A stretch of 64,000 bases of DNA, taken from a virus. Position numbers and translations under genes: made by a program. Below are positions 28,686 through 43,911 of this stretch, in pieces. Within the stretch, counting starts at the first letter, position 1. Every line of letters begins with the position of its first letter. The notes below the pieces were generated by a model. The model was not told where the DNA came from and did not search any database. It was given only the letters and a program-made list of their open reading frames with translations. Location: IMG/VR virus record IMGVR_UViG_3300045988_128600, one strand, 5' to 3'.

Positions 28686-28697
28686 CTGATTGAATAT

Positions 28698-29114
28698 TTA
28701 TGCAAGAAATGCGTTTACAATTTCATCGAACACCGTGGGGTTAATGTCCACATTAAAAAAACGGTCATTCTTGCGGAACGCTTTGGGGTATCGTCTAATC
28801 AGTTCCGCACGCAATGCGCTTTCCGCGCCTTCGGCGGGATAGTCCCCACAAGAACGGATTCGGTGAATTTCAACGCGCGTGATAGCATACTTTTTTGCAT
28901 ACTCGCCGATTTCATCACGCAAGCGCCCTATAACATCTTTTGCGGAAGTGCCTACTTTGTTAAATTCAAGTTCGTCGTTGTTGTAAAACTTAAAAAAGTA
29001 GACTGCTTGAACGTCTTTCAGGTTCTCGCCACAATTAGGCATAAACTCCATAGAAACGGGCGGTCTGCCGTCCTTAAATCGGCGTAGCTTAATAGTAATT
29101 TCTTCCATTAACAC
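28698..29114 (-). CDS. GIY-YIG-like domain protein (putative nuclease)
   Basis: VYFFKF-(10)-KVGTS, then downstream R and E residues; weak GIY-YIG-like pattern. It shares a 29-nt 5'-UTR element with gene 31390..32166. Confidence 0.4.
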   Translation of the reverse strand: MLMEEITIKLRRFKDGRPPVSMEFMPNCGENLKDVQAVYFFKFYNNDELEFNKVGTSAKDVIGRLRDEIGEYAKKYAITRVEIHRIRSCGDYPAEGAESALRAELIRRYPKAFRKNDRFFNVDINPTVFDEIVNAFLA

Positions 29115-29231
29115 AAAATCCTCTCTATTGATTGAGGTTTACCATCGTTCTCTCAACCATTATTTTTTGTACTTTTTTGCTTGTTTTCGGGTGAAAAACC
29201 GCATTTTTCAACGGTTTTTCACCCTTTTTTG

Positions 29232-29639
29232 TCAGTTTTTGGGCTTTCGCTTCTGAATCAGGGTCAATTCATAATCATTTTCGCCCACATGGAACGCAAT
29301 CATGCGCTCAATGTTCGTGATTTCCACATTTTCGCACGCATTTTCGCTGTTTTCACGCAAAAAAGTCGCAAGTTCAGCGATAATCGAGCGTTTTGTGGGG
29401 TTTTCCTTGCGCTGTCGCTTCTCAAACTTATAAGCGGTCGGCGCTTTGCGTGTTCCGGTCTTAGAATACTTGTTAGCTTCTTTGAGCTTTTCCGCGGACA
29501 GGTCAAAGTCTTTGGCGATTCCATGGTCAATGTCATCATCGTCCATGAGAATTTCTTTTGCTTCCTCGGCAGTACAATCCAACTTTTTCATTAGATTGTC
29601 AATCTTTGCCTGAAAGTCCTTTTCACTCATTTTAGGCAT
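29232..29639 (-). CDS. hypothetical protein
   Basis: 135-aa ORF. Overlapping plus-strand and alternative-frame ORFs were judged spurious. Confidence 0.45.
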   Translation of the reverse strand: MPKMSEKDFQAKIDNLMKKLDCTAEEAKEILMDDDDIDHGIAKDFDLSAEKLKEANKYSKTGTRKAPTAYKFEKRQRKENPTKRSIIAELATFLRENSENACENVEITNIERMIAFHVGENDYELTLIQKRKPKN

Positions 29640-29703
29640 TTTCTTTGCCCCCTTTCAAGTATGATTATAACACCGCCGTCAGCAAATGTCAAGAGGAAAA
29701 TGT

Positions 29704-29738
29704 GGGAGCGCCTAATTTTTTTTTAGGCGCTCCCCTTG
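29704..29738. terminator. bidirectional terminator
   Basis: gggagcgcctaa-ttttttt-ttaggcgctccc hairpin. Confidence 0.55.
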
Positions 29739-29740
29739 AA

Positions 29741-30118
29741 TTAACGCGCCATGCGGAAGTAGGACTTGCGCTTGTCCACAATCTTTTCCACCTTGTTGGC
29801 GTCAATCATCTGACGCAGAAGAGCGGAAACGCGCTGGTTGGTGAGGTCGCCCAGATCGTCCACATTCTTAATGAGGTCGGTCACGGTATACAGCTTGTCG
29901 GGGTTTGCGGTCATTTCAGCAAGGATAATGTCCTTGTAGCCGTCGTTGGCAATCTGATTCGCGGTCGGCTTCTTATCGCCCGCGTTCTTCTTGGCGAGCA
30001 ATTCGATTTCGTGGTTGATAAACTCAACCATAGCAGGGTCAGCCTGGACCTCGGACAGCTTGAGCAGAGCCTCGAAACGGTCGCGCTTGGTGAGCTTCTT
30101 AACAGTAGAAGTAGACAT
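29741..30118 (-). CDS. hypothetical protein, paralog family A
   Basis: About 60% identical to 32307..32681 over its length; shares the HEIELLAKKNAGDKKPTA motif. Confidence 0.55.
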   Translation of the reverse strand: MSTSTVKKLTKRDRFEALLKLSEVQADPAMVEFINHEIELLAKKNAGDKKPTANQIANDGYKDIILAEMTANPDKLYTVTDLIKNVDDLGDLTNQRVSALLRQMIDANKVEKIVDKRKSYFRMAR

Positions 30119-30169
30119 AGTATCAATTCCTTTCTTTGGCGGTAGGTCGCTACCCTTTTGATATTATTG

Positions 30170-30198
30170 AGTATACCACACTTTAGAGTGCTTGTCAA
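30170..30198 (-). promoter_or_regulatory. sigma70-type promoter TTGACA-N17-TATACT
   Basis: Read from the minus strand; it drives gene 29741..30118. Confidence 0.55.
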
Positions 30199-30647
30199 GA
30201 GGTTTCGCAAACTTTTCACACGAATTACCGCCCCGACCTGACGGATAATTTATTGTTTGTTGATTCAATCTATTTGTCAGCGGAAAACCGCGTCAAGGAT
30301 AGTTGGTTCAATCAAACTCACTTTCGCGTTCAACGTTTGGCTTTACAACGTGGTGTATTATGTTTACTTCCTATACTTTCTCAAGGTCGCGCGCCCTCGG
30401 ATTTCTTGGGCTACTCCCTCTCGACATTTTCTATTGTAGCACACTCGCTGGGATTTGTCAAGAGGGAATTTCAAATTTCTTTGAAAACGGGTCAGTTACC
30501 GAGTTATCACACCCATCAGCGAAGCCGTTTGGCAATTCACTGTTCCCTCCTGACATTATTCATTATAGCAGATTGCCCGTAGATTGCAATTGACAAAATA
30601 ACCAAATTACGGGAAAAAATTTTCTTCATTTTTGTGCAACTTTTCTC

Positions 30648-30676
30648 TTGACAAAATTGGCGGGGTGTGGTATAAT
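30648..30676 (+). promoter_or_regulatory. consensus sigma70-type promoter TTGACA-N17-(TGg)TATAAT on the plus strand
   Basis: Perfect -35 and -10 hexamers with a 17-bp spacer and an extended -10. It points opposite to the flanking genes. Confidence 0.5.
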
Positions 30677-30683
30677 GGAAAAT

Positions 30684-30790
30684 TCGGACCGCTGCGTACG
30701 CTGGCGGTCCGCCCATTTTATCACAAAAATCCGCATTTGTCAATAGGCAAAATAAACAAAAAAAACTGCCCATTTTTGGGCAGTTTTTTA
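30684..30790 (+). ncRNA. candidate about 105-nt sRNA (repeat-family copy E1)
   Basis: It starts downstream of the consensus promoter with a GC stem-loop (cggaccgc...gcggtccg). An A/U-rich segment follows, then the terminator hairpin ctgccca-ttttt-gggcag and a T-run. Confidence 0.35.
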
Positions 30791-30791
30791 T

Positions 30792-31037
30792 TTAGTCCAG
30801 CAGGTTGATTTCGCCGGGAATTGCGAAAGAATCAGCGTTCAATGTGTAGTTCCAGCCCGTGGCAAAAAATTCAATCGTTCCACACTCTCTGACGTAATTG
30901 TCTACTGACCGCCGAACGTTGTTCCAGAGGTCAGTCTGTCGGCTTTCCGCTCGGGCTTCCTTGACTTCCTTTATTTGGGCGATGAGTTCGTCCAGTTCCT
31001 CGTCAGTCATGCAATTAAAATCTAAATCCATTTTCAA
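30792..31037 (-). CDS. hypothetical protein
   Basis: 81-aa ORF. Confidence 0.45.
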   Translation of the reverse strand: MKMDLDFNCMTDEELDELIAQIKEVKEARAESRQTDLWNNVRRSVDNYVRECGTIEFFATGWNYTLNADSFAIPGEINLLD

Positions 31038-31339
31038 AACTCCCTTTTAATGGCTTTTTCCCACGCTTCACGGCCGAACTTTCCCTCGCGGTCTAACTTC
31101 TTGCCAATGTCTTTTGCGGTCAGCAGGTCAAGCTCGTCCGCAATCTCATCTTCAAAGTTTACCCAAGAGTCGTAAGTCTGAATAATGAGAACTTCATCAG
31201 CTTCAAAGACGCCACCGCACTCAGCGCAGATAATATAATCGTGGTCGATTAAAATACCCATGTGAGGGTCATTATCATCAGGGACTACAAAAAGGACTTG
31301 TTTAGCGTTCATGTGAAACACCTCTTTCATTTGATACAT
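31034..31339 (-). CDS. hypothetical protein
   Basis: 101-aa ORF; the promoter at 31341-31369 lies directly upstream. Confidence 0.45.
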   Translation of the reverse strand: MYQMKEVFHMNAKQVLFVVPDDNDPHMGILIDHDYIICAECGGVFEADEVLIIQTYDSWVNFEDEIADELDLLTAKDIGKKLDREGKFGREAWEKAIKREF

Positions 31340-31340
31340 T

Positions 31341-31369
31341 GATTATACCATAGGGAATAGGATTTGTCA
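31341..31369 (-). promoter_or_regulatory. sigma70-type promoter TTGACA-N17-TATAAT
   Basis: On the minus strand the element reads gggcTTGACAaatcctattccctatggTATAATcaa. Confidence 0.55.
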
Positions 31370-31389
31370 AGCCCTATTCCCTATTTTTT

Positions 31390-32166
31390 TTAGCTCATGT
31401 TTATCATGGGATTTTCCTTAATGTTTCGCATGAGCGCACGCTGAAACTCGGTCGGCTTGGGGCGTTCCACCGTGGGAGTTTTGAAAAGGGACTTTTCCAT
31501 TTTCTTGTGCTGTCGGACGCAATAGCGCAGAATCTCAACTTCAATGAGAACATCTTCTAATCCCGTGTGGGATTCATCAAAGCTGTCCTTACCGCTGATA
31601 AAGCGATAGAGAATTTCTGCGGTGAAACGGAGCTGTCCGTTCTTGGTCTTGTAGCCGTTCTTTTCGCAATAGTCGCGGTAAGTGGGCATTTTGCCGATAA
31701 CCTGACGTGCCATTTTCAACGTGTCCCAAATTTCGAGGTCGTAGGGGAAGAAATAGCGATACTTGCTTTTCGTGTCCCATCTTTGTGCGTTGTTGCAGGC
31801 GTTAAGGTCGAACCGCATATTGTGAGCGCACACAAAAGAGCAGTTGTAGCGCTCGACACATTCGCAAAACGCAAGACGAATTTCGTAAAGGTCAGCCATA
31901 ATGCGAATGCCGTTTTGAATATCCTCGACATAGCGAGGAATCTTGTTGGCATAGTATGCGGACTGCATGAGGTCGCGTTCGTAGCAGAAAATGTCGCGAT
32001 TCACAAAGGAATGAGTTTCATAAACATTTCCCTTGGAATCAATGACTGCCCAGCCGAAGTCGTAGGGAAGCACATTTGACATATCCAGCTTATTACCGTC
32101 CTGAATGGTGTTTGCGGTTTCCGTGTCCAGCATAATGCCGTAGTTTTTGCGCCTATCAATACCCAT
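31390..32166 (-). CDS. DnaQ-like 3'-5' exonuclease (DEDDh)
   Basis: IMLDTETAN (Exo I), CAHNMRFDLN (Exo II) and HTGLEDVLIEVE (Exo III, H-x4-D) motifs. Confidence 0.6.
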   Translation of the reverse strand: MGIDRRKNYGIMLDTETANTIQDGNKLDMSNVLPYDFGWAVIDSKGNVYETHSFVNRDIFCYERDLMQSAYYANKIPRYVEDIQNGIRIMADLYEIRLAFCECVERYNCSFVCAHNMRFDLNACNNAQRWDTKSKYRYFFPYDLEIWDTLKMARQVIGKMPTYRDYCEKNGYKTKNGQLRFTAEILYRFISGKDSFDESHTGLEDVLIEVEILRYCVRQHKKMEKSLFKTPTVERPKPTEFQRALMRNIKENPMINMS

Positions 32167-32306
32167 TTTATCGTCTCCTATTGGAAAAGTAGATTGAGGT
32201 TTACCATCGTTCTCTCAACCTCTAAATATAGTATAGCACTTTGCTATTGGTTTGTCAACAGTTTTTTTTGTGGGGCAGGGGATTTTTTATCCCCTGCCCT
32301 TTTCCC

Positions 32307-32681
32307 TTATGCGTGGGAGAAGTAGGACTTGCGCTTGTCAACCGTCTTGACAACCGTGCCTGCATCAATCATCTGACGCAGAAGAGCAGAAACACGCTGG
32401 TTGGAATACTCCGCAAGCTCGGGAACGCCCTTGATGAGGTCGGTCACGGTATACAGCTTGTCAGGGTTTGCGGTCATCTCGTCCAGAATGACCTGCTTCA
32501 CAGCGTCATTCTCCATCTGCTTGGCCGTGGGCTTCTTATCGCCCGCGTTCTTCTTGGCGAGCAATTCAATCTCATGCTCGATGAACGCCACCATGTCAGG
32601 ATTTGCCTGAACCTCGCTCATTTTGAGCAGAGCCTCGAAACGGTCGCGCTTGGTGAGCTTCTTAACAGTAGAAGTAGACAT
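32307..32681 (-). CDS. hypothetical protein, paralog family A
   Basis: Paralog of 29741..30118 and 11203..11619. Confidence 0.55.
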   Translation of the reverse strand: MSTSTVKKLTKRDRFEALLKMSEVQANPDMVAFIEHEIELLAKKNAGDKKPTAKQMENDAVKQVILDEMTANPDKLYTVTDLIKGVPELAEYSNQRVSALLRQMIDAGTVVKTVDKRKSYFSHA

Positions 32682-33184
32682 AGTATCAATTCCTTTCTGG
32701 TTTTTGAGACTGTCCTTGTCTTTGATGTAGTTATTATATCATAGGTGGCGCAGGTTGTCAATAGGTTTTGCAAATTTTTTTTAGGGGCGGTCGCGAGGTT
32801 TATTACTATACATCTTGTTTATACCTACCTTTATCTATAATCATAAACCAATTCATTTTACTAAACCAAATTAGTCTTTAAGGCGGTGGACGAGCATTAG
32901 AAGTCATCTTGTTTTTACCTCTCTCATTTGATGTATTCATTATACCCTACGTAGAACGGTTTGTCAAGGGGTTTTTCAAACTTTTTTTTTGAAAGTTTGT
33001 TCGGCACGCCACGCTTGGAACATTCCGTCGGATTTTGGTATAATGGTCAAGGGAACTGCCTTTCCGCAGGTCTTACTCTTTCCTCCTGACATTATGTAGT
33101 ATAGCAGATTGGTAATGATTTGTCTATTGGCAGAATGACCAAATAACGGGAAAAAATAAAATTGAAATTTGTGCAAAATTTCTC

Positions 33185-33213
33185 TTGACAAAAATGCTGG
33201 CAGGGTGTATAAT
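33185..33213 (+). promoter_or_regulatory. consensus TTGACA-N17-TATAAT promoter on the plus strand (repeat copy E2)
   Basis: Same layout as the promoter at 30648-30676. Confidence 0.45.
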
Positions 33214-33219
33214 GGTAAA

Positions 33220-33330
33220 TTCCGGTCGCAACATGCGTTAGCGACCGGCCAATTTTATCACATTTAAGGAACTTTGTCAATAGTCAAAGTAAACAAAAAA
33301 ATCTCCCCATTTTTGGGAAGATTTTCTTTT
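33220..33330 (+). ncRNA. candidate sRNA (repeat-family copy E2)
   Basis: GC stem-loop ccggtcgc...gcgaccgg, then the terminator tctcccca-ttttt-gggaaga and a T-run. Confidence 0.3.
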
Positions 33331-33604
33331 AGCCAATCACATTGACCTCGGTTTTGATAGGCGTTACCATCTTGTCGCGCGGGAACTCGCGAACCTGACC
33401 CGTTTCAAGATTCACCGCGTAGCAATACTGCGGGCCTCTCGACCGGACAAACGGCGTGTTGTTGTTGCTGTCAATTTTAAGATACATTCCCATACCGCTA
33501 CCATTGGAACGCAGAGTGGTGAACGTGCCACCGCTGAGAACGTTGATAATCTGGAACTGACCCTTAGTGCCAAAATTTACTTTCATTTTTATTTCCTCTT
33601 TCAA
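33329..33604 (-). CDS. hypothetical protein
   Basis: 91-aa ORF. Confidence 0.4.
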   Translation of the reverse strand: MKEEIKMKVNFGTKGQFQIINVLSGGTFTTLRSNGSGMGMYLKIDSNNNTPFVRSRGPQYCYAVNLETGQVREFPRDKMVTPIKTEVNVIG

Positions 33605-33915
33605 AATTCTTCTAAGAAGTGAATCGGTTTATGATTTGGTCTGAAAAATGCCATTCCCTCGGTATAAAGAGAATTAAACAAATCCGCAGACACTTCAAAC
33701 CATTCCGTGCCACTAATGCGATTGCCCAACTCACTTAAAGTCAGATGACAAGAATTTTCCATGTCTCGGCTTCCAGCGCAAGTGCTACGCATTATTGCTT
33801 TTGGATTATGGGTGTAATAGGTTTTACGACGATTTGCAAGGTTTTTAGTGCCGTCAGAATAGCCAACTTTAACCAAATGACTATTGGCTAAATTATCCAT
33901 CATCAAATACAGCAT
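33601..33915 (-). CDS. hypothetical protein; weak T5orf172/GIY-YIG-like signature
   Basis: VKVGYSDGTKNLANRR loosely resembles the T5orf172 motif; the resemblance is weak. Confidence 0.3.
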   Translation of the reverse strand: MLYLMMDNLANSHLVKVGYSDGTKNLANRRKTYYTHNPKAIMRSTCAGSRDMENSCHLTLSELGNRISGTEWFEVSADLFNSLYTEGMAFFRPNHKPIHFLEEF

Positions 33916-33922
33916 TTTTACC

Positions 33923-34066
33923 TCACAACAGATGGGTATTGACCCAATCTGCGGTCACAAGTCCGATTTCCTTAGAGACAACCGTTTCATAGCGGTAATT
34001 ACCGCCATCAGTTCGTCCGGTCACTTTGGCGAGAACGCCAAGGGTAAGCCAAAAATAAGGCATCAT
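33923..34066 (-). CDS. small hypothetical protein (47 aa)
   Basis: AAAGGGG SD then ATG, immediately after the stop of the upstream TM peptide. Confidence 0.3.
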   Translation of the reverse strand: MMPYFWLTLGVLAKVTGRTDGGNYRYETVVSKEIGLVTADWVNTHLL

Positions 34067-34071
34067 TTTTA

Positions 34072-34278
34072 TCACCCCTTTGAACCGACCGTAAAGAGCG
34101 AACGCAGAAGCAACAGAACAATCCAAATTGCGAGCGCCAGCTTCCACGAGAACACGATGACGAAAGTGCCGATTGCGGTGATACCAAGGGCGGGAAGAAG
34201 CCAACAGAGAAGCCAAACCAGACCAGAGGTAAGCAGGAACGAAATTGCGAGAGACAGCAGAATCAAAAGAACAAACAT
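34072..34278 (-). CDS. small membrane protein (2 TM)
   Basis: Consensus promoter at 34309-34337, then SD and ATG; strongly hydrophobic. Confidence 0.5.
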   Translation of the reverse strand: MFVLLILLSLAISFLLTSGLVWLLCWLLPALGITAIGTFVIVFSWKLALAIWIVLLLLRSLFTVGSKG

Positions 34279-38150: not shown

Positions 38151-38342
38151 TTAATTTTCTACGGCTTCGAGGTCGGCGAGAATGGGAACGAGCTTGTCTT
38201 CAAGAAGCGCGACACGCTCAATCATTTCATTTGCCTCTGCACCACCCGACGGGTATCTCTTCTGAATACCGTATCGAGCCATTCTGCACACCGTTTCAAC
38301 AACCTCGCTCAGTTTCTCATTTTTCATTTTTCTTATCTCCAT
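38151..38342 (-). CDS. hypothetical protein
   Basis: 63-aa ORF. Confidence 0.4.
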   Translation of the reverse strand: MEIRKMKNEKLSEVVETVCRMARYGIQKRYPSGGAEANEMIERVALLEDKLVPILADLEAVEN

Positions 38343-38438
38343 TCAATTTATTTTTGGAAAGGGTGGCGGTTGTTTCAGGCACAACCGCCAAAGCCATAGG
38401 AAAGGGGGAGAAAAAACACGAACAAAAGTTCGGTTTTG

Positions 38439-38690
38439 TCAAGAGATAATGAGTTCTGCACCGTAGATGGGGAGAACCAAGTGTTTTGGACTGAAACAGT
38501 CAAGAGTGTAATTATCCAAATTGAGAGCGTTCCATTCATCTGCTCCGGTGTCGTCATTGACCTCTAAAGAGGTTTTAATGTAATAAGTGTCTCCGGTGGT
38601 GGCAGGGGCTTGAAAAACCATACCCTCGGGAATATCTTCAAACGGAACAAGTTTATTGCTATGTTTAACAGTAATTTTCATTTCATTCAC
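38439..38690 (-). CDS. hypothetical protein
   Basis: 83-aa ORF. Confidence 0.4.
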   Translation of the reverse strand: MNEMKITVKHSNKLVPFEDIPEGMVFQAPATTGDTYYIKTSLEVNDDTGADEWNALNLDNYTLDCFSPKHLVLPIYGAELIIS

Positions 38691-38838
38691 CCTTTATAAT
38701 AGTATTTGTAAGCCCATTCGATGATTTCATGGCTTGTGGTAGTCCATTCCTCTTTGGGGCTATCGAACTTTTCCGCATACTTTTTGATGTAGTTATTATA
38801 CTCCATGCGTGCGGTGTCGTATGCTCCAATAGCCACAA

Positions 38839-39039
38839 TTAAAGCGTGCTTCGCTTTTCGGCGTCAGAGACGGCTTTCTTGCGGTCAGCGCCATCGGGGT
38901 AGAGGTTAATCACTCCTACGCGCGTAATGACTTGCCTTGTCTTTTCATAAAGGCGGTCGCGTGTTTCCCATACTTCATAAAGCGCATCGTCCGCGCGACT
39001 TTCATAAGGGTTGAAAGGCTTCTTTTTCTTACCGAACAT
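38839..39039 (-). CDS. small basic protein
   Basis: Start placed at MFGKKKKPF; the longer TTG-called ORF overlaps the upstream gene. Confidence 0.35.
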   Translation of the reverse strand: MFGKKKKPFNPYESRADDALYEVWETRDRLYEKTRQVITRVGVINLYPDGADRKKAVSDAEKRSTL

Positions 39040-39367
39040 TTTTCTTTTTCTCCTTTTCCTGTTTATTCCACATTCTATCAAAGAACGCATTTGCGAGAAC
39101 ACGCTTGTAAAGGTTATCAGGCATGGGGCGCTCGCCGTGCTTATTTCTCCAAATCGCGGTGATTTTATCAATATCCGCGATATAGGCTGTAATGAGCGTG
39201 CCGTCCTTGGCGCTACGGATAAGAAGAATACCGGTTGTAGTGATAGTGTAGAGAACATCGTCCTCAACGCTGTCGATATACGGTTCGCCGATTCCTACAT
39301 TATCGTAGATGAAGAGCAGGCGGTCAATGCGGTCTTGCGTAGCATGTTTTGACATTTTGATAAGCAT
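39029..39367 (-). CDS. hypothetical protein
   Basis: Start moved to the ATG (MLIKMSK) downstream of promoter 39405-39433 and the AAGAGG SD. Confidence 0.4.
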   Translation of the reverse strand: MLIKMSKHATQDRIDRLLFIYDNVGIGEPYIDSVEDDVLYTITTTGILLIRSAKDGTLITAYIADIDKITAIWRNKHGERPMPDNLYKRVLANAFFDRMWNKQEKEKKKNVR

Positions 39368-39404
39368 TTGTTTTACCTCTTTCTTTTCCTCTTGGATTGA
39401 TTGT

Positions 39405-39433
39405 ATTATACCATATGGGGAGGGGCTTGTCAA
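39405..39433 (-). promoter_or_regulatory. sigma70-type promoter TTGACA-N17-TATAAT
   Basis: On the minus strand the element reads gggcTTGACAagcccctccccatatggTATAATaca. Confidence 0.55.
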
Positions 39434-39450
39434 GCCCCTTTAATATAATT

Positions 39451-39597
39451 GTTCCCCATTGTGGTAGCGCTCATATTCCGCTTCAAGGAAGTCGAGAATA
39501 GTTTCAAAGTCGTCTGCGTCTGCGGGGTCTGCAAAGACCTTTTCAAGGACTTCGTTAGTGTGTCTGTTGTAAACTCGAACCATATCCATTTTACTTA
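39451..39597 (-). CDS. small acidic protein (about 49 aa)
   Basis: Promoter 39620-39648 (TTGACA-N17-TATAAT), AAGAGG SD, then ATG (MDMVRVYN...). Confidence 0.35.
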
Positions 39598-39619
39598 CCT
39601 CTTTCTTGATTGTATATGT

Positions 39620-39648
39620 ATTATATCATGCGAAAGGGCTTTTGTCAA
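39620..39648 (-). promoter_or_regulatory. sigma70-type promoter TTGACA-N17-TATAAT
   Basis: tgtcaa at 39643-39648 and attata at 39620-39625 on the plus strand. Confidence 0.55.
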
Positions 39649-39794
39649 GCCCTTTTTATCAGAAATGATAATTTCTGATGATGGCGTCGAACTTGGGAGC
39701 ATATTTAATTTCCATGGTGTTTCTCCCTTTCCTTTATTGTATCTTTATTGTAGCATATAGGGCTTGTTTTGTCAAGCCCTATATGCAATTTTTT

Positions 39795-40103
39795 TTAGCA
39801 GTAAGCCAGATTCCCGCGTGCCCAGCCATATACGCTGATTTGATTGCACGCCTTGCCAATTTCAAGCGCCTGCTTCTTGGTCTGCACCCTCTTGGACTTG
39901 TCAACATAATAGATGCCGTTCGCAAGCCACACACCGCAGTTTCCGTCGAAGTCCTTAACCGCGTTGATAGCTTCGCGGGCGGTCTTACATTCAACGCCGT
40001 TGGTAGCGACCTGCCAGCCGGACTTGTAGTTGACTTTTTTGCCATATTTGAGGGTCATGCCGTCATTTTCTGCGAGCTTACGAATAGAACGAATGTTAAT
40101 CAT
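39795..40103 (-). CDS. hypothetical protein
   Basis: 102-aa ORF with a long 5' leader that includes a GC stem-loop (repeat copy E5). Confidence 0.45.
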   Translation of the reverse strand: MINIRSIRKLAENDGMTLKYGKKVNYKSGWQVATNGVECKTAREAINAVKDFDGNCGVWLANGIYYVDKSKRVQTKKQALEIGKACNQISVYGWARGNLAYC

Positions 40104-40368
40104 GTTGTAAATCCCTTTCCGGTTTGGTAGGTTTTCCTTCCCTTACTGTGATTATAGTATAGCACCGATTCGGGATTCTGTCTATTGACATTATGCACAA
40201 AGATTTGCCATAAAAATTGTTGAACTTGCCTATTGACACAAAATTCCGGCCGCGCCTGGCGTGCACGGCCGGCCGATTATACCACAAAGTTTTGAAATTG
40301 TCAATAGTCAAAGTAAACAAAAAAATCTCCCCATTTTTGGAGAGATTTTTAATTCAAAAAATTTAATT

Positions 40369-40668
40369 TTAACCATCAACATAAACGATAAGGACATCAT
40401 TTTTGGCTTTCAAACCGCTGACCGGTAGTCCCAGCACCCATTCTTCGCTTGCGCCTAAAACATCGCCGTTCAGAGTCATGCGACCTTTGCGGTCTTTGAG
40501 ATAGCGACCGCAAGTGTTTTCATTTATCACTTCGATGCCGTTCCCCTCATAGAACATCAGCGCGCCTTTTACCAGACCAATCACATTTTTAACCATGCCC
40601 AAAGTCATTTTTGTCAACCTCTTTCGTTTTAATGTTGTTCCCCTTGGAACAATTATAGTATAGCACAA
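40369..40668 (-). CDS. hypothetical protein
   Basis: 99-aa ORF. Confidence 0.4.
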   Translation of the reverse strand: MCYTIIVPRGTTLKRKRLTKMTLGMVKNVIGLVKGALMFYEGNGIEVINENTCGRYLKDRKGRMTLNGDVLGASEEWVLGLPVSGLKAKNDVLIVYVDG

Positions 40669-40760
40669 GGTGTAGCAAAAGTCAACTTAAATTTTGGGAT
40701 TACCAATAGGTAAAATGTATAAAAAACTCGGCAGGATTTTGTATGTCCTGCCGAGTTTTT

Positions 40761-40955
40761 TTAGTCTTCCCAACTCTCGATGACTTCGCCGGTCATTGCA
40801 TCGATGATGTCAACCGAGAGGACGTTGTCTGCGTCCATGAACTTCTGCCCGAGGGCATATGCGTTTTCCTGTCCTGCGACAGACACTTCATAGCGATAGC
40901 GGTTGTTATCGCCAGCCTTGTAATTGTAGTAGTTGATAGAAACAATAAATAACAT
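40761..40955 (-). CDS. hypothetical protein
   Basis: 64-aa ORF. Confidence 0.35.
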   Translation of the reverse strand: MLFIVSINYYNYKAGDNNRYRYEVSVAGQENAYALGQKFMDADNVLSVDIIDAMTGEVIESWED

Positions 40956-41059
40956 TTGGTTTATCCCCTTTCTTTTTATACTCTTATTATACTATAGATT
41001 CAGGATTTGTCAATAGGTTTTTGAAAAAAGTTTGAAAAAAAATAAGGGCGTTTCCGCCC

Positions 41060-41317
41060 TTATTCTTCATAAATAATAATATTATTTTGTAGCAGTTTCA
41101 CGCGAGAATCTTCACAAAAGTGATAGGTAAAACTCACGGAGAGGTGTTTGAGAAATTCACGTCTCCATGTGCGGGACTTCGGCTCTAATTCAAAGAGAAT
41201 GTAAAGCGTTTCTTCTAACCGGTCGAGGAAGTTTTCAGTGTCCGCGACGTTGAATTTGCCCGCGAATTTCGGAATAGGATTAGAAGTCCCAACAGTAATA
41301 ATGTTGTAAGTTGTCAT
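41060..41317 (-). CDS. hypothetical protein
   Basis: 85-aa ORF. Confidence 0.4.
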   Translation of the reverse strand: MTTYNIITVGTSNPIPKFAGKFNVADTENFLDRLEETLYILFELEPKSRTWRREFLKHLSVSFTYHFCEDSRVKLLQNNIIIYEE

Positions 41318-41509
41318 GGAAAAATCTCCTTTTCATTTGATGTATTTATTATACATGATAGTGTGGAACTTGTCAATACTTAAAATAGAAAAAAGAGAAG
41401 TTTTTCAACTTCTCTTTTTCAGTTTCTTTTCTGCCCATTCAATGAGCGCGCCCGCGGCGATTGTCCCAAGGTAAATGAAAAGTAAAACTAAACCGTCATG
41501 CATGCTCAT

Positions 41510-41692
41510 TTAATATTCCTCCACATACTCAGTAAAAACAAGCTCCCAGTCAGGGCCAAGATCCGGAGCTTTGCAGTATCGTGACTGTCGAATGTCATGC
41601 TCATTAGTAATTTTGTTGATAAACTCGAATTCATACATTTTTATTATCTCCTTTTCTTTACTGTACCAATAGTATAGCAGATAACAGGGCAT
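41510..41692 (-). CDS. hypothetical protein
   Basis: 60-aa ORF. Confidence 0.35.
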   Translation of the reverse strand: MPCYLLYYWYSKEKEIIKMYEFEFINKITNEHDIRQSRYCKAPDLGPDWELVFTEYVEEY

Positions 41693-41726
41693 TTGTCAAT
41701 ACCATTTATAAAAAAATGTACGAGGT

Positions 41727-42044
41727 TTAATCCTCGTACATTTCCATTAACGATTTGATTTTTTCGATTGCATTTTCAATTTCTTCTACATAGTCGGCCT
41801 GCTCCTCATTTGCGCGCATGGCCTGTTCATATGCGTCATAGATAGCTTCGCACTGTTCACGGGTGTAGTCTTCTTCTGGAGCGTGTTCCATGGTGACGAC
41901 TGTCGTCCAAGCGAGCGTTTCCTTATCGTCAAGGTCATCGGCTTTTTCCGTGGCAGTGGTAAGCTCATGTTCGAGGCGCGTTTTTTCGAGCGAGAGGGTC
42001 TTGAGAAAATCCTTGTTAGTCATTGTGGTGTATCTCCTTTTCAT
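41727..42044 (-). CDS. hypothetical acidic/coiled-coil protein
   Basis: 105-aa ORF. Confidence 0.4.
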   Translation of the reverse strand: MKRRYTTMTNKDFLKTLSLEKTRLEHELTTATEKADDLDDKETLAWTTVVTMEHAPEEDYTREQCEAIYDAYEQAMRANEEQADYVEEIENAIEKIKSLMEMYED

Positions 42045-42338
42045 TTGATACCTTTATTATACCACTTCTGGACTGAATGTCAATAGGTTTTTGAAAAAAA
42101 TATTTATTCATCAGGGCTGTATAAATATTCATGTATAAATATTCATTTTCGGGTGTATAAAGGTGACTGGCATAATGCACAAAATGGTTTCAAAATTTTT
42201 GTGCAACTTGCCTATTGCAAAACTCGGCCTGCTGACTTGCGCAACGCACGTCAGCGGGCCGGCCAAGCCAATGTGTGAATATGCAATGAATATTCATATG
42301 AATATTTATGAATCAAAATGAAAAATGGAGAGAGAGAC

Positions 42339-42701
42339 TTAATAAGCCTCTCTCCACACCTTGATTATTTCATCATCTGCTATATCATCTGTGTCATTAT
42401 CGTTTATCCACAAAAGCAGAAAATCATTATCATCAATGGTCATATTCTCAACTTCCCATTGGTTGCCACGTTCGTCCAGTAGCGTGATGGTGTTACCATT
42501 TCGGGAAGCGACCTCTGCACCGATAAAGCGTATGCTTCCTTTCTCTGTGCCAGCGCCGCACCATTCATCTAATGCGGTGAGGTCGTAGGACTGGGGTGCT
42601 TCCTCACAGGCTTCCGCGGTTGTGTGGTCGTGGAATCCGAAGAAAGACACGGAGAGAATGATGGCAATGGCCATGGTGATGATTTTGGAAACGTTTTTCA
42701 T
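42339..42701 (-). CDS. secreted protein (signal peptide)
   Basis: The N-terminus MKNVSKIITMAIAIILSVSFFG is hydrophobic and is followed by a cleavage-like site. Confidence 0.45.
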   Translation of the reverse strand: MKNVSKIITMAIAIILSVSFFGFHDHTTAEACEEAPQSYDLTALDEWCGAGTEKGSIRFIGAEVASRNGNTITLLDERGNQWEVENMTIDDNDFLLLWINDNDTDDIADDEIIKVWREAY

Positions 42702-42724
42702 TTTGTTTTACCTCTTTCTTACTT

Positions 42725-42868
42725 TATAGGTTAGTGGCGATAGTGACAACAGCAATAAGCATGAGCGTGCTTGAGACAGCTTTACCTACATTCTTGCTAT
42801 CTATGGCATAGACAAAATTATATGCGCTTATAGCGGTAAGCACAATAATAGCAGCAATGATAGACATG
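42725..42868 (-). CDS. small membrane peptide (47 aa)
   Basis: ATG ORF with 2 TM segments, below the ORF-track cutoff. Confidence 0.3.
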
Positions 42869-42897
42869 GCATATGCTCCCCTCTTTGAGCGAGTGGG

Positions 42898-43248
42898 TTA
42901 AACCCACTCGCTAAACAATGTCTTGATATAGTCGTCATGTAAATCACCGGGAAGCTGGTCAATTCCGCATTTGTATGTGTTCAGAACAGTTAATTTGTTC
43001 CCAACACTCATGTTCTCGCGCTCAAATTTGGCCTGTTCTTCAACGGTCATAAAATACCCGCTATAATTATAGATGTCACCAAATTCGGCATCATCTATAA
43101 TATAGTCTACCACGGTGAAGCGCGTGTCAATCCATGTTTTAGCGATCATGGACATAATATCTGCGCGTTTACGCCAGTCCTCACCAAGGACATAAGACAA
43201 GGGCTTGACAGGAATAACGCCGTCGAGAAGAGTCTTGATAGTAGACAT
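42898..43248 (-). CDS. hypothetical protein
   Basis: 116-aa ORF. Confidence 0.4.
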   Translation of the reverse strand: MSTIKTLLDGVIPVKPLSYVLGEDWRKRADIMSMIAKTWIDTRFTVVDYIIDDAEFGDIYNYSGYFMTVEEQAKFERENMSVGNKLTVLNTYKCGIDQLPGDLHDDYIKTLFSEWV

Positions 43249-43326
43249 AATGTGCCTTTCCGCGCTATTGTGCGCTATCGTATGTGTGTGTAGGTATGCA
43301 CCGCGAGGGGCGAGGGCACAAGGCCC

Positions 43327-43629
43327 TCACTTATTCGCGGTGGTGGGAAGCACCTGAGCGGCACGGGCAGTCGCGGCCTTGGGATACTTTGCAAGGCACT
43401 CGGCATACAGCTTGGGCGCTTTAGTCTTAAAGACTTTCGTATCGAGGCCGCCTGCGTTCATGCCACCGGCGCGAATCTGCACGGTGTACTTGTTTTCGGC
43501 GGTGTAAACCGTCGTGCCGGTCAACTCACTATCGGCGCGGAATTCGGCCTTGAGTTCTTCTAAACGTGCGCTCAATTTTTTAATCTGTTCGGAGAGTTTG
43601 CAAATCTCTTTAATTTTGTTGTCGGTCAT
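43327..43629 (-). CDS. hypothetical protein; first gene of the leftward early block
   Basis: Start placed at MTDNKIKEI with SD. Sits in a GC-rich segment. Confidence 0.4.
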   Translation of the reverse strand: MTDNKIKEICKLSEQIKKLSARLEELKAEFRADSELTGTTVYTAENKYTVQIRAGGMNAGGLDTKVFKTKAPKLYAECLAKYPKAATARAAQVLPTTANK

Positions 43630-43911
43630 AATTAAAAACCCCTTGTAATGTATTTGCCGTTCGGTATTGTGTCGCTCGGCATGGTCAAATAGTAGCAGAT
43701 TCGACCACGGAATACAAGTGGCGGATTGCACAAAGATTTGTTTGTACGGGGGTCTGTTTTTGTGCAGTTTGACGGGCGCGGCACCCTTGCATCATACCTT
43801 TGTATTTTTATTCACTCAAGAATGAATAAAATCTGCATAGAGGGGGGGTGTATTTCAGGAAAAATAAATTTTTATTTATTGTTTTTTCTTTTGCCTGGTC
43901 AAAACGCAATC

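What the first reader, a model, noticed from the sequence alone, without database searches (positions are those of the whole stretch)
28690..43760. Early region built from single-gene units, each with a textbook sigma70-type promoter and a terminator
At least 14 minus-strand promoters match TTGACA-N17-TATAAT almost perfectly, many with a TGn extended -10. Examples are at 30170-30198, 31341-31369, 32238-32266, 32745-32773, 34309-34337, 34847-34875, 36080-36110, 36605-36633, 39405-39433 and 39620-39648. Each lies 20-40 nt upstream of a small ORF with an AGGAGG-like SD. Most ORFs are followed by a GC hairpin plus T-run. The density, about one consensus promoter per 400-1000 bp, is unusually high and implies very strong host-RNAP-driven early transcription of many tiny proteins. 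Many of these are membrane peptides and could be host-takeover or superinfection-exclusion factors.
Basis: seen in the sequence. Interest (0 to 1): 0.65.

Follow-up and report, generated by a model that had tools for sequence, protein, structure and literature searches.

The report
Promoter-dense early gene module of phage
This stretch is the early gene block of an uncultured gut phage, in which about 40 small genes sit behind about 30 near-perfect host-type promoters; that layout is already known from large phages of Gram-positive bacteria, but here it is unusually extreme and contains a repeated promoter-against-hairpin unit whose role is unknown.

Summary
The core observation is real and understated. 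In 27.0-44.1 kb, 30 sites match TTGACA-N16-18-TATAAT at 11/12 or better (0.48 expected) and 17 match perfectly (0.01 expected). Twenty-seven of the 30 lie on the minus strand, and most have a TGn extension. The hexamers stay fixed while spacers drift in 15 related viral contigs. A cultured relative, Enterococcus phage H1, has the same layout.

The details are only partly right.
- About 13-14 of 22 coding units are single-gene.
- About 10 of 31 promoters precede no gene.
- Only about half of the unit ends have a sense-strand hairpin plus T-run.
- 8 of 40 proteins look membrane-bound.

I read it as a host sigma-A-dependent early module of the SPO1 or phage K type. It has no protein homology to the SPO1 module, and terminal-repeat status cannot be tested here. 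It is a standard-code, 40-44% GC island with no TAG stops, inside a genome whose flanking genes need TAG read as an amino acid.

The unexpected part is a 200-bp module repeated every ~2.3 kb: a strong promoter abuts a covarying GC hairpin. In half the copies a second perfect promoter faces it. Its function is unknown.

Verdict: a new variant of a known kind, of moderate interest.

The parts
27050..43900 (-). Whole early module. About 40 small standard-code genes sit behind about 27 near-consensus sigma-A promoters. GC is 40-44% against 22-37% in the flanks.
42056..42083 (-). Promoter TTGACA-16-TATAAT, 12/12, with TG. Precedes gene 42023-41727.
41671..41699 (-). Promoter, 11/12 (TATACT), with TG. 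Precedes genes 41638 and 41509.
41348..41376 (-). Promoter, 12/12. Precedes gene 41317-41060.
40986..41013 (-). Promoter, 12/12, 16-nt spacer. Precedes gene 40955-40761.
40657..40685 (-). Promoter, 10/12, with TG. Precedes gene 40608-40369.
40276..40304 (-). P1 promoter of module F, 12/12, with TG. Abuts hairpin F; no ORF follows.
40246..40272 (-). Hairpin F, a GC stem followed by AATTTTGTGT on the gene strand.
40156..40184 (-). P2 promoter of module F (TAGACA-17-TATACT, 10/12, with TG). Precedes gene 40103-39795.
39747..39775 (-). Promoter, 11/12. Its -35 lies in the loop of the 14-bp hairpin 39753-39786, which has an A-run 5'. Precedes an 18-aa ORF.
39620..39648 (-). Promoter, 12/12, with TG. 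Its -35 lies in a hairpin loop. Precedes gene 39589-39440.
39405..39433 (-). Promoter, 12/12, with TG. Its -35 lies in a hairpin loop. Precedes a 4-5-gene unit, 39367-38151.
38074..38102 (-). P1 promoter of module E (TAAAAT -10, 11/12, with TG).
38044..38070 (-). Hairpin E, followed by GTTTTTTG on the gene strand.
37954..37982 (-). P2 promoter of module E (TAGACA-17-TAAGAT, 9/12, with TG). Precedes membrane-protein gene 37923.
37383..37411 (-). Promoter, 11/12, with TG. Precedes genes 37353 and 37117.
36604..36632 (-). Promoter, 11/12, with TG. Its -35 lies in a hairpin loop. Precedes the AbrB/MazE-like gene 36573-36121.
36073..36101 (-). Promoter, 11/12, embedded in the 16-17-bp hairpin 36076-36115. 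The T8 run is on the plus strand only. Precedes gene 36043-35864.
35791..35819 (-). P1 promoter of module D (TAAAAT, 11/12, with TG).
35762..35788 (.). Hairpin D. It lies between P1-D and the facing plus-strand promoter.
35726..35754 (+). P+ promoter of module D, 12/12, with TG. It faces P1-D.
35639..35667 (-). P2 promoter of module D (10/12, with TG). Precedes a 3-gene unit, 35607-34927.
34867..34895 (-). Promoter, 12/12, with TG. Precedes the HAD phosphatase-like gene 34834-34334.
34309..34337 (-). Promoter, 12/12, with TG. Its -35 lies in a hairpin loop. Precedes a 4-gene unit, 34278-33329.
33252..33280 (-). P1 promoter of module C (TAAAAT, 11/12, with TG).
33222..33248 (.). Hairpin C.
33185..33213 (+). 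P+ promoter of module C, 12/12. It faces P1-C.
33098..33126 (-). P2 promoter of module C (10/12, with TG). It precedes a strong SD but no ORF, in a nearly invariant non-coding stretch.
33015..33044 (+). Second plus-strand promoter (TTGGAA-18-TATAAT, with TG). It faces P2-C and is conserved in relatives.
32939..32967 (-). Promoter, 12/12. Precedes the 9-aa micro-ORF 32907-32878, which ends RPPP-stop.
32733..32761 (-). Promoter, 12/12, with TG. Precedes gene 32681-32307, which is 79% identical to 30118-29741.
32230..32258 (-). Promoter, 11/12, with TG. A conserved leader hairpin follows, then the DEDDh-like exonuclease gene 32166-31390.
31342..31370 (-). Promoter, 12/12, with TG, embedded in a 13-bp hairpin that has an A7 run 5'. 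Precedes genes 31312 and 31031.
30715..30743 (-). P1 promoter of module B (TAAAAT, 11/12, with TG).
30685..30711 (.). Hairpin B. The tool also scores it as a plus-strand terminator.
30648..30676 (+). P+ promoter of module B, 12/12, with TG. It faces P1-B.
30562..30589 (-). P2 promoter of module B (10/12, with TG). Only a 14-aa ORF follows.
30433..30461 (-). Promoter, 11/12, with TG. About 230 nt with no ORF follow.
30170..30198 (-). Promoter, 11/12, with TG. Precedes gene 30118-29741.
29664..29692 (-). Promoter, 12/12, with TG. Precedes genes 29639-29232 and 29108-28698.
28614..28642 (-). P1 promoter of module A, 12/12, with TG.
28584..28610 (-). Hairpin A. It is carried on the inserted homing-endonuclease cassette.
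27838..27864 (-). Hairpin H. It is the original partner of P1-A, displaced by the 740-bp insertion.
27729..27757 (-). Promoter, 11/12, with TG.
27590..27618 (-). Promoter, 12/12. Precedes the last early-type gene, 27556-27181.
42223..42267 (-). Hairpin G, a longer stem with no P1. It is flanked by repeated ATGAATAT boxes.
28662..28691 (.). Bidirectional terminator just upstream of P1-A. Equivalent ones lie at 30760-30789, 33295-33328, 35840-35859, 38118-38148 and 40321-40350.
43918..44074 (.). Tandem array, 27 bp x 5.8, at the upstream border of the module.
26911..27019 (.). Tandem arrays (21 bp x 2.1 and 26 bp x 2.7) at the downstream border. Related contigs L001 and L003 end here.

Best explanation
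The stretch from about 43.9 kb down to about 27.05 kb, on the minus strand, is the early gene module of an uncultivated large phage of gut Firmicutes. Related contigs are 97-197 kb. It depends on the host's own RNA polymerase.

How I think it works, step by step:
1. Right after DNA entry, unmodified host sigma-A holoenzyme binds about 27 near-perfect promoters. Each has TTGACA, a 17-bp spacer, TGn and TATAAT, usually with an A/T-rich tract upstream.
2. Each promoter drives one gene or a short 2-5-gene group through a stereotyped leader of about 25 nt and a strong Shine-Dalgarno site.
3. About 40 small, mostly unknown proteins are therefore made at once, in the standard genetic code, before any phage factor exists.
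4. Hairpins end or insulate the units.
5. Later expression is handed to the flanking genes, which need TAG read as an amino acid. A phage sigma-like gene lies next door (inferred).

Every ~2.3 kb a 200-bp repeated module sits in the array. It holds a bidirectional terminator, a strong promoter pressed against a GC hairpin, in about half the copies a second perfect promoter facing it, and then a weaker promoter for the next gene. These units can yield only hairpin RNAs of about 30-40 nt, or hold polymerase in place. I read them as two-way insulators or tiny-RNA units, with low confidence.

Shown here: the sequence features, their excess over chance, their conservation, the hairpin covariation and the coding context.
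Inferred: early timing, dependence on host polymerase, and what the repeated modules do.
For: Excess over chance: 30 sites at >=11/12 against 0.48 expected, and 17 perfect against 0.01. The tool scan gave 93 against 35.3. Twenty-seven of the 30 are on the gene strand.

Placement: about 21 promoters lie 25-64 nt from an SD-preceded start codon, and many share the leader ATCAAATGAAAAGGAG.

Selection:
- 15 related IMG/VR contigs each have 22-31 sense-strand sites, and more distant ones have 12-29.
- Other viral contigs from other samples reach 1-3 sites per kb.
- Enterococcus phage H1 has 16 sense-strand sites in about 7 kb, most about 20-30 nt before an SD.
- Hexamers are invariant while spacers vary.

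Context:
- The window is a phage. A tape-measure protein and a virion protein are present. Terminase and portal appear once TAG is read as Gln.
- Reading TAG as sense raises coverage by stop-free frames of 150 aa or more from 0.43 to 0.93 at 44-64 kb.
- The 39 early genes in the module use TAA 24 times, TGA 15 times and TAG never.
- A gene that PHROGs labels 'sigma factor', with 2 in-frame TAGs, sits behind a perfect promoter at 45058-45086.

Analogy:
- SPO1 has a 24-gene host-takeover module in a 13,185-bp terminal redundancy (PMC10531801).
- SPO1 early genes depend on sigma-A (PMC13401047).
- A phage K-like virus has 58 strong sigma-70-type early promoters (PMC7698491).
- Phage K terminal-repeat genes are transcribed by 2 min (PMC9241854).

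Repeated modules:
- The covariance model found 102 hits (73 distinct), all on the gene strand.
- The stem is 98.8% paired, and 4 of 8 pairs carry double compensatory changes. Slid controls are 28-46% paired.
- The facing promoter's hexamers have entropy of 0.03 and 0.05 bit, against 0.95 in the spacer.
- The facing promoter and a sense-strand T-run are alternatives.
- Module spacing is regular, with CV 0.076 and p about 7e-5.
Against: - There are no transcript data, so timing and promoter use rest on consensus matches and analogy. The scan tool itself warns that matches are not evidence of function.
- Many promoters share flanking sequence, so part of the count reflects duplication of one cassette rather than independent events.
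- About 10 strong promoters drive no protein, which the simple 'express many small proteins' model does not explain.
- Seven unit-end hairpins have their T-run only on the antisense strand.
- The first four genes (43629-42339) have no consensus promoter.
- No early protein matches SPO1 host-takeover genes. Nearly all lack any family hit, so 'host takeover' is unproven.
- The 'sigma factor' label comes from PHROGs only. No Pfam sigma domain was found.
Confidence: 0.75

Rival explanations
1. Polymerase sink. The main job of the promoter array is to pull host sigma-A polymerase away from host promoters, giving host shut-off by competition. Many units, above all the promoter-hairpin modules, exist to bind polymerase and not to express anything.
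For: - About 10 of 31 strong promoters precede no gene.
- P1 and the facing promoter combine a consensus -35, a 17-bp spacer, TGn, a consensus -10 and GG just downstream. From general knowledge, that combination favours very stable binding and slow escape.
- Perfect promoters persist next to decayed micro-ORFs.
- The density (30 per 17 kb) exceeds the SPO1 terminal redundancy (5 per 14.5 kb) and the phage K terminal repeat (8 per 9.5 kb) by the same scan.
Against: - Most promoters are precisely placed before SD-preceded ORFs that relatives conserve.
- A sink would not need hairpins that covary or regular spacing.
- This reading is compatible with the main explanation and is not an alternative to it.
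Confidence: 0.15
2. Transcription-driven genome entry. As in T7, a run of co-oriented strong host promoters at the leading end lets host polymerase pull the DNA into the cell. The density guards against terminators.
For: - 27 of 30 strong sites point the same way. Minus-strand genes continue leftward for about 40 kb beyond the module.
- The module is bordered by tandem arrays. Two related contigs end in one of them, which could mark a physical end.
Against: - The genome ends are unknown.
- Conserved plus-strand promoters and many terminators oppose a pulling role.
- Relatives of this kind (SPO1, phage K) are not known to need this, to my knowledge.
Confidence: 0.1
3. The promoter-hairpin-promoter modules are genes for tiny RNAs that act in trans. 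They could be complementary hairpin pairs or decoys against a host defence or nuclease. The rest of the region is an ordinary early module.
For: - Every hairpin is flanked by at least one near-perfect promoter and by a T-run in that promoter's direction.
- The hairpin covaries, and an inner C-G pair plus a four-base loop is kept in 53 of 73 distinct copies.
- The facing promoter is under strong constraint.
- The same arrangement occurs in 59 viral stretches, from sample 3300045988 and 24 other samples. In 47 of 50 distinct centres the sequence folds at -8.9 kcal/mol or better.
- RNA-seq of phage K found small non-coding RNAs in its terminal repeat, one of 46 nt (PMC9241854).
Against: - Stem sequences differ between copies within one genome, so there is no common sequence for a single target.
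- The hairpin starts 2-4 nt after the -10 of P1, so a P1 transcript would lack part of the 5' arm.
- No Rfam family matches, CRISPR repeats included.
- Wobble pairs do not clearly favour one strand.
Confidence: 0.2
4. The promoter-like sites are simply copies of one duplicated cassette, or the GC-rich island is foreign DNA or an assembly chimera. On this view there is no selection for promoter function.
For: - Promoters fall into a few sequence classes with shared flanks and leaders.
- One gene is duplicated at 79% identity.
- GC jumps by 10-15 points at both borders.
Against: - Hexamers are near-invariant while the spacers and flanks between them vary, both among paralogues and across 15 genomes.
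- The same junctions and gene order recur in independent contigs.
- A cultured phage with 30% GC shows the same promoter layout.
- Both borders are spanned by continuous related contigs.
Confidence: 0.03
5. The modules are replication origins or primer sites. Short promoter-driven transcripts that end in a GC hairpin would prime DNA synthesis at regular intervals.
For: - Spacing is regular at about 2.3 kb.
- The units combine a strong promoter, a GC-rich start and A/T-rich flanks.
- Repeated ATGAATAT boxes lie around hairpin G.
Against: - Nothing ties the modules to replication proteins.
- Seven origins in 15 kb would be unprecedented, to my knowledge.
- Relatives of this phage encode a primase (PMC10607447).
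Confidence: 0.04

Closest known systems
Host-takeover module in the terminal redundancy of Bacillus phage SPO1 (Herelleviridae)
   Same: - It is a 13-kb block of 24 small, mostly unknown genes, expressed first by host sigma-A polymerase from strong promoters with strong ribosome sites, followed by a phage sigma cascade (PMC10531801, PMC13401047).
- The capsid-region protein of this window has distant matches in Bacillus, Enterococcus and Staphylococcus large phages.
   Different: - No early protein is homologous.
- By the same scan SPO1 has 5 sites at >=11/12 in 14.5 kb, against 30 in 17.1 kb here.
- SPO1 genes lie on both strands. No promoter-against-hairpin module was seen in SPO1, whose 5 sites at >=11/12 are followed by weaker hairpins that start further downstream.
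- Terminal-repeat status is unknown here.
- This genome is TAG-recoded outside the module.
Early promoters and terminal-repeat genes of Staphylococcus phage K and its relatives (Kayvirus)
   Same: - 58 strong sigma-70-type early promoters were mapped by RNA-seq (PMC7698491).
- Terminal-repeat genes are transcribed within 2 min, and small non-coding RNAs were found in the terminal repeat (PMC9241854).
- A strong promoter with no ORF is also present there, at 4962.
   Different: - Density is lower, at 8 sites per 9.5 kb.
- No convergent-promoter hairpin module was noted in that scan.
- There is no recoding.
Enterococcus phage H1 (OP534061) and relatives EF1, EF5 and VRE9; phage phAss-1
   Same: - These are true relatives. 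The exonuclease-like protein is 39% identical and the capsid-region protein 40-50%.
- H1 has 16 consensus promoters in about 7 kb, most directly before small genes, and both early regions hold a HAD-like hydrolase gene upstream of the exonuclease gene.
- phAss-1 and its group read TAG as Gln (PMC10607447).
   Different: - H1 is 30% GC throughout this region and is reported as not recoded (PMC10607447).
- The covariance model for the promoter-hairpin unit finds nothing in H1.
- H1 has two TAAAAT promoters next to GC-rich inverted repeats (one clear hairpin, one weak), but they point against the genes.
- I found no description of these promoters in the papers I read.
Face-to-face promoter pairs with transcriptional interference or cis-antisense RNA (coliphage 186 pR/pL, P22 Pant/Psar, lambda oop; from my own knowledge)
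   Same: - Two promoters fire toward each other over a short overlap.
- One product is a short, hairpin-terminated RNA.
   Different: - Those are single switches at a lysis-lysogeny or immunity locus.
- Here there are 6-8 copies per genome at regular spacing in a lytic early region.
- The overlap is only about 35-40 nt and consists of the hairpin itself.
- Both promoters are at or near consensus.

Membership tests
Housekeeping sigma-70/sigma-A promoters (extended -10 class) | -35 TTGACA and -10 TATAAT, 16-18 bp apart, found more often than chance | tested here: met
   30 sites at >=11/12 against 0.48 expected, and 17 perfect against 0.01. 28 of 31 curated sites have a 17-bp spacer.
Housekeeping sigma-70/sigma-A promoters (extended -10 class) | TGn directly upstream of the -10 | tested here: met
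   22 of the 27 minus-strand sites at >=11/12 carry TG.
Housekeeping sigma-70/sigma-A promoters (extended -10 class) | Hexamers conserved in relatives while the spacer sequence drifts | tested here: met
   Entropy is 0.03 and 0.05 bit in the hexamers against 0.95 in the spacer, over 43 distinct instances of the facing promoter. The same pattern holds in the alignment of 33140-32731.
Housekeeping sigma-70/sigma-A promoters (extended -10 class) | Transcription actually starts 6-8 nt downstream and depends on host holoenzyme | not testable with these tools
   There are no transcript data for this phage or its cultured relatives.
SPO1-type host-takeover module in a long terminal repeat | Cluster of small early genes behind strong host-type promoters and strong ribosome sites | tested here: met
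   40 genes with a median length of 84 aa, with SD motifs and about 27 promoters.
SPO1-type host-takeover module in a long terminal repeat | Location inside the direct terminal repeat of the linear genome | not testable with these tools
   This needs read coverage or end mapping. Tandem arrays border the module, and two related contigs end in one of them, which is suggestive only. No related contig yielded a second locus for the exonuclease-like gene of the module.
SPO1-type host-takeover module in a long terminal repeat | Homology to SPO1 gp37-gp60 | tested here: not met
   tblastn of 40 early proteins against SPO1 1-14500 gave no hit at E <= 1e-3.
SPO1-type host-takeover module in a long terminal repeat | Products shut off or redirect host functions | not testable with these tools
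   Only five products have any family match.
Intrinsic (Rho-independent) terminators | GC-rich hairpin followed by a T-run on the transcribed strand | tested here: inconclusive
   34 terminator-like sites against 16.3 expected. About 10 unit ends meet the definition on the gene strand, and 7 have the T-run only on the opposite strand.
Face-to-face promoter / cis-antisense RNA pairs | Two promoters pointing at each other with overlapping transcripts | tested here: met
   Three perfect pairs are in the window. 31 of 58 distinct modules in the family have both promoters at >=11/12. The overlap of the transcripts is inferred from the geometry.
Face-to-face promoter / cis-antisense RNA pairs | One promoter or its RNA lowers the output of the other | not testable with these tools
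   This needs reporter or RNA measurements.
CRISPR-repeat mimics (RNA anti-CRISPRs, solitary repeat units) | Hairpin sequence matches a CRISPR repeat family | tested here: not met
   No hairpin is hit by any Rfam CRISPR-DR model, even at E <= 5. The single CRISPR-DR25 hit lies inside a gene. Stems also differ between copies. Repeats of the unknown host could not be compared.
Stop-codon-recoded phages (TAG read as Gln) | In-frame TAG in conserved late genes, with full-length family matches once TAG is read as Gln | tested here: met
   Terminase (7 TAG), portal (11 TAG) and others match. Coverage rises from 0.43 to 0.93.
Stop-codon-recoded phages (TAG read as Gln) | Suppressor tRNA gene | tested here: not met
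   No tRNA gene was found in this 64-kb window. It may lie elsewhere in the genome, which by related contigs is 97-197 kb.

The most novel reading that the evidence does not exclude
The repeated promoter-hairpin-promoter units may be a previously undescribed kind of phage regulatory element.
- They are placed every ~2.3 kb.
- They contain two consensus promoters that fire into one covarying hairpin.
- They could make abundant complementary hairpin RNAs of about 30-40 nt, or hold polymerase in place.
- Either way they would partition the early region into insulated domains, or supply small RNAs that act on the host.
- They are conserved across viral contigs from about 25 metagenome samples.
Probability: 0.3. 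Interest if true: 0.7.

Novelty: new variant of a known kind. Interest (0 to 1): 0.5.

Why it matters
- It shows how far a phage can push the tactic of winning host polymerase with perfect promoters. The density is 1.75 consensus sites per kb, several times that of the SPO1 and phage K regions scanned the same way.
- It ties that tactic to stop-codon recoding. Only the block that must work before any phage factor exists is written in the host's code. That block has higher GC, carries host-type promoters and avoids TAG stops.
- If this holds, the early/late border in recoded phages can be read from sequence alone.
- The region is a ready source of strong, compact Firmicute promoter-leader cassettes.
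- The facing-promoter hairpin modules are a concrete, testable puzzle in transcription control.

Tried and rejected
- Known phage identity: megablast of the region and a distant blastn of one module against deposited phages found nothing.
- Known RNA families: Rfam gave nothing at gathering scores. At E <= 5 it gave only terminator-like chance hits. No tRNA genes were found.
- CRISPR-repeat mimic: not supported.
- Homology to SPO1 takeover genes: none.
- Solved structures: no sequence match for the duplicated 124-aa protein or the exonuclease-like protein.
- Same element in bacterial genomes: the exact facing-promoter pattern gave 52 hits. Only L082 and L122/L126 carry this family's GC hairpin (L125 has an unrelated one). 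L122 and L126 lie on a 163,874-bp contig binned as 'Mollicutes' that looks like the same phage family. The other hits are unrelated promoter pairs.
- Strand of the functional hairpin RNA: wobble pairs and mismatches split between the strands, so this is undecided.
- Code-switch sensor idea: the small upstream ORF in the conserved leader hairpin ends in TAG. The TAG is replaced by TGA in one relative (L014), so I dropped the idea.
- Terminal-repeat status: it cannot be decided from contig ends alone.
- I did not run structure predictions or the large protein-homology searches. They would not bear on the promoter question.

Full report

Yes. The consensus scan of 28000-44500 returned 93 promoter-like sites against 35.3 +/- 5.9 in shuffles. 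Sixteen of them matched TTGACA-N16/17-TATAAT perfectly.

I repeated the test on 27001-44100 with 100 dinucleotide-preserving shuffles. There were 30 sites at 11/12 or better against 0.48 expected (maximum 3). There were 17 perfect sites against 0.01 expected. Twenty-seven of the 30 lie on the minus strand, and 22 of those carry TG before the -10. The remaining ~47 kb of the window holds only 8 such sites.

Six are off by 1-20 nt.

**2. What is only partly right**

I mapped promoters, start codons preceded by a Shine-Dalgarno motif, and hairpins along the minus strand.

- About 21 of 31 promoters sit 25-64 nt, mostly 30-33 nt, before a start codon. Many share the leader ATCAAATGAAAAGGAG.
- About 10 promoters precede no real gene. 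Six press directly against a GC hairpin. Others precede only 9-14-aa micro-ORFs or about 230 nt of non-coding sequence.
- About 13-14 of about 22 coding units are single-gene. The rest hold 2-5 genes. The first four genes (43629-42339) have no consensus promoter.
- Of 27 gene ends with a gap of 40 nt or more, 22 have a stable hairpin. Only about 10 have a T-run on the gene strand.
- Seven unit-end hairpins have an A-run on their 5' side, so the T-run is on the opposite strand. Separately, seven promoters carry their -35 hexamer in the loop of a hairpin (36101, 39775, 31370, 34337, 36632, 39648, 39433).
- Eight of 40 products have a hydrophobic segment.
- The module extends further than reported. 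Promoters at 27757 and 27618 drive a last GC-rich gene at 27556-27181.

**3. What the window is**

It is a phage.

- A tape-measure protein and a virion protein are recognisable as read.
- The right flank becomes almost fully coding only when TAG is read as sense. Coverage by stop-free frames of 150 aa or more goes from 0.43 to 0.93.
- With TAG read as Gln, the large terminase (7 TAG), the portal (11 TAG) and a gene that PHROGs labels 'sigma factor' (2 TAG) match their families over their whole length.
- Pfam finds no sigma domain in that last protein, so I treat the label with caution.
- Distant relatives are phAss-1, a described TAG-to-Gln phage from the human gut (PMC10607447), Enterococcus phages H1, EF1, EF5 and VRE9, and more remotely Bacillus and Staphylococcus large phages.

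The promoter-dense block is different from its flanks. It is 40-44% GC against 22-37%. It reads cleanly in the standard code. Its 39 genes stop with TAA 24 times, TGA 15 times and TAG never. It is therefore a standard-code island in a recoded genome.

**4. Is the layout selected or accidental?**

The evidence points to selection.

- Fifteen related IMG/VR contigs of 97-197 kb carry 22-31 sense-strand sites each across the same region. Four of five more distant contigs carry 12-29; the fifth, a 4.7-kb fragment, has 3.
- Unrelated-sample contigs found by a pattern search reach 1-3 sites per kb.
- Cultured Enterococcus phage H1, at 30% GC, has 16 sense-strand sites in about 7 kb, most about 20-30 nt before a ribosome site.
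- In alignments, hexamers stay fixed while spacers and flanks change.
- Relatives are collinear, but cassettes have been swapped or inserted, and several junctions fall at promoters.
- By the same scan the SPO1 terminal redundancy has 5 sites in 14.5 kb, and the phage K terminal repeat has 8 in 9.5 kb.

The layout is a lineage trait, and it is more extreme here than in the textbook cases.

**5. Most likely mechanism**

Host sigma-A holoenzyme, with no phage factor needed, binds these promoters as soon as the DNA enters. It transcribes many short units in parallel. The products are small proteins of unknown function, made in the host's code.

Later genes need TAG suppression and probably a phage-encoded sigma-like factor. 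That factor's own gene lies just outside the module, behind a perfect promoter at 45058-45086, and itself contains TAG codons.

The timing and the dependence on host polymerase are inferred from the promoter type and from known phages:
- SPO1 early genes depend on sigma-A (PMC13401047).
- The SPO1 host-takeover module has 24 genes in a 13,185-bp terminal redundancy (PMC10531801).
- A phage K-like virus has 58 strong sigma-70-type early promoters (PMC7698491).
- Phage K terminal-repeat genes are transcribed by 2 min (PMC9241854).

**6. The unexpected part: a repeated intergenic module**

Six clear copies have their first promoter at 28642, 30743, 33280, 35819, 38102 and 40304. A partial copy lies at about 42260, and a displaced hairpin at 27838-27864. 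They align as one ~200-bp unit with four elements:
1. a bidirectional terminator;
2. a strong promoter, P1, whose -10 is followed after only 2-4 nt by a GC hairpin;
3. in copies B, C and D, a perfect promoter on the opposite strand, P+, that faces P1;
4. a weaker promoter, P2 (TAGACA-17-TATACT), for the next gene.

A covariance model built from the six copies found 102 instances (73 distinct) in the window and the 15 close relatives. All are on the gene strand. None is in the distant relatives or in phage H1.

The 8-bp stem is paired in 98.8% of cells. Four of the eight pairs show double compensatory changes, in 111 cells. Slid controls are 28-46% paired. An inner C-G pair closing a four-base loop is present in 53 of 73 distinct copies.

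The facing promoter's hexamers are almost invariant, at 0.03 and 0.05 bit against 0.95 in the spacer, over 43 distinct instances.

The facing promoter and a sense-strand T-run are alternatives.
- With the facing promoter present, the P1 -10 is TAAAAT in 26 of 33 cases. On the other strand that sequence supplies the T-run after the hairpin. The sense T-run is then weak, at 3.06 T in 9 nt.
- Without the facing promoter, the sense T-run is strong, at 4.95 T in 9 nt.

Every hairpin is therefore fired into by at least one near-perfect promoter and followed by a T-run in that direction. The only possible products are hairpin RNAs of about 30-40 nt.

The modules are regularly spaced, with gaps of 2101-2539 nt, CV 0.076 and p about 7e-5 under random placement.

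An exact pattern for the facing pair hit 59 viral stretches, from sample 3300045988 and 24 other samples. In 47 of 50 distinct centres the sequence folds at -8.9 kcal/mol or better. In bacterial genomes the same pattern hit 52 places. Only L082 and two hits on one 163,874-bp contig that looks like the same phage family carry this family's GC hairpin.

I cannot show what the modules do. My preferred reading is a two-way insulator that also holds polymerase. Tiny trans-acting RNAs, a cis-antisense pair and primer sites remain open. The nearest published analogue I found is the set of small non-coding RNAs seen by RNA-seq in the phage K terminal repeat (PMC9241854).

**7. Comparison with known systems, and membership**

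The region works like the SPO1 host-takeover module and the phage K early region.

I do not file it as a member of the SPO1 module.
- No early protein is homologous.
- Terminal-repeat status cannot be tested here.
- Tandem arrays border the module at 43918-44074 and 26911-27019, and two related contigs end in the latter. That is suggestive only.

The promoters meet every sequence criterion of the sigma-70/sigma-A class. Actual start sites remain untested. The hairpins match no Rfam family, CRISPR repeats included.

**8. Verdict**

- The interpretation as host-polymerase-driven early expression is well supported by inference.
- The picture of uniform single-gene units is too simple.
- The kind of system is known. 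This example is more extreme, sits as a standard-code island in a TAG-recoded genome, and carries a conserved, periodic facing-promoter hairpin module that I could not find described.
- I rate it a new variant of a known kind, with interest 0.5.

Noticed in passing
window 44000-64000 and 1-6100: The flanking genes need TAG read as an amino acid. Coverage by stop-free frames of 150 aa or more rises from 0.43 to 0.93 at 44-64 kb. With TAG read as Gln, terminase (47400-49139, 7 TAG) and portal (49495-51171, 11 TAG) match their families end to end. No tRNA gene lies in the window.
   Followed up: yes
window 28698-43629: The 39 early genes stop with TAA (24) or TGA (15) and never with TAG. This fits genes that must still terminate correctly once TAG is being read through.
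   Followed up: yes
window 45058-46163 (+): A gene that PHROGs labels 'sigma factor' (E 6e-55, no Pfam sigma domain) lies just outside the module. It sits behind a perfect TTGACA-17-TATAAT promoter and contains 2 in-frame TAG codons. It may be transcribed early but translated only after TAG suppression begins.
   Followed up: partly
window 27880-28608: A low-GC gene resembling a homing endonuclease (NUMOD4 and HNH-like motifs) with in-frame TAGs is a 740-bp insertion absent from relatives L002 and L006. It sits exactly after the -10 of promoter P1-A and brings its own hairpin. The original hairpin is displaced to 27838-27864.
   Followed up: partly
window 26911-27019 and 43918-44074: Tandem repeat arrays lie at both borders of the module (21 bp x 2.1 and 26 bp x 2.7 at one end; 27 bp x 5.8 at the other). 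Related contigs L001 and L003 end inside the first array. They could mark terminal-repeat boundaries or merely break assemblies.
   Followed up: partly
window 32878-32907 and 32781-32813: Two micro-ORFs follow a perfect promoter and a strong ribosome site. The first reads M-x-x-x-A-R-P-P-P-stop. Its RPPP ending is kept in the 13 close relatives aligned through it, with a synonymous Arg codon change. The second ends RDRP-stop. Two relatives (L008, L014) have a deletion joining the two ends. A stalling leader peptide is possible.
   Followed up: partly
window 32985-33095: A non-coding stretch after promoter P2-C is almost invariant in 15 relatives, more conserved than the neighbouring genes. A conserved plus-strand promoter at 33015-33044 faces it, forming a second convergent pair.
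   Followed up: partly
window 32184-32222 and 29128-29160: The same 29-nt leader hairpin (GGTTGAGAGAACGATGGTAAACCTCAATC) precedes two nuclease-like genes: the DEDDh-type exonuclease at 32166 and a T5orf172-like gene at 29108. It is invariant in close relatives, with one compensatory change in L014. It may be a shared translational operator. The small upstream ORF inside it ends in TAG, but in TGA in one L014 copy.
   Followed up: partly
window 29741-30118 and 32307-32681: One gene is duplicated at 79% identity. Its C-terminal half looks by eye like a winged-helix DNA-binding domain, but no family or solved-structure match was found. The two copies break the assemblies of relatives L011 and L015.
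   Followed up: partly
window 42090-42330: Repeated ATGAATAT(T) boxes, including a 14-bp unit x 2.1 at 42118-42146, flank hairpin G upstream of the first consensus promoter. Relative L001 has about four tandem 11-bp copies here. This may be a binding array for a regulator.
   Followed up: no
window 37578-37923: A membrane-protein gene appears split by a frame shift at a GGGGAAAA run: a 32-aa ORF followed by a 100-aa frame. This could be a sequencing error or a programmed shift.
   Followed up: no
L021 (Enterococcus phage H1) 7800-8620: An 800-bp gene-free stretch in the cultured relative is packed with ATAAAATAAC boxes and TGTGAA...TTCACA palindromes around a GC hairpin. An antisense TAAAAT promoter is also present. 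It may be an origin or control region.
   Followed up: no
window 198-6038 (-): With TAG read as Gln, three large radical-SAM-type proteins appear, one of them fused to a family-2 glycosyltransferase domain. This suggests a modification pathway in the 22-28% GC left end.
   Followed up: no
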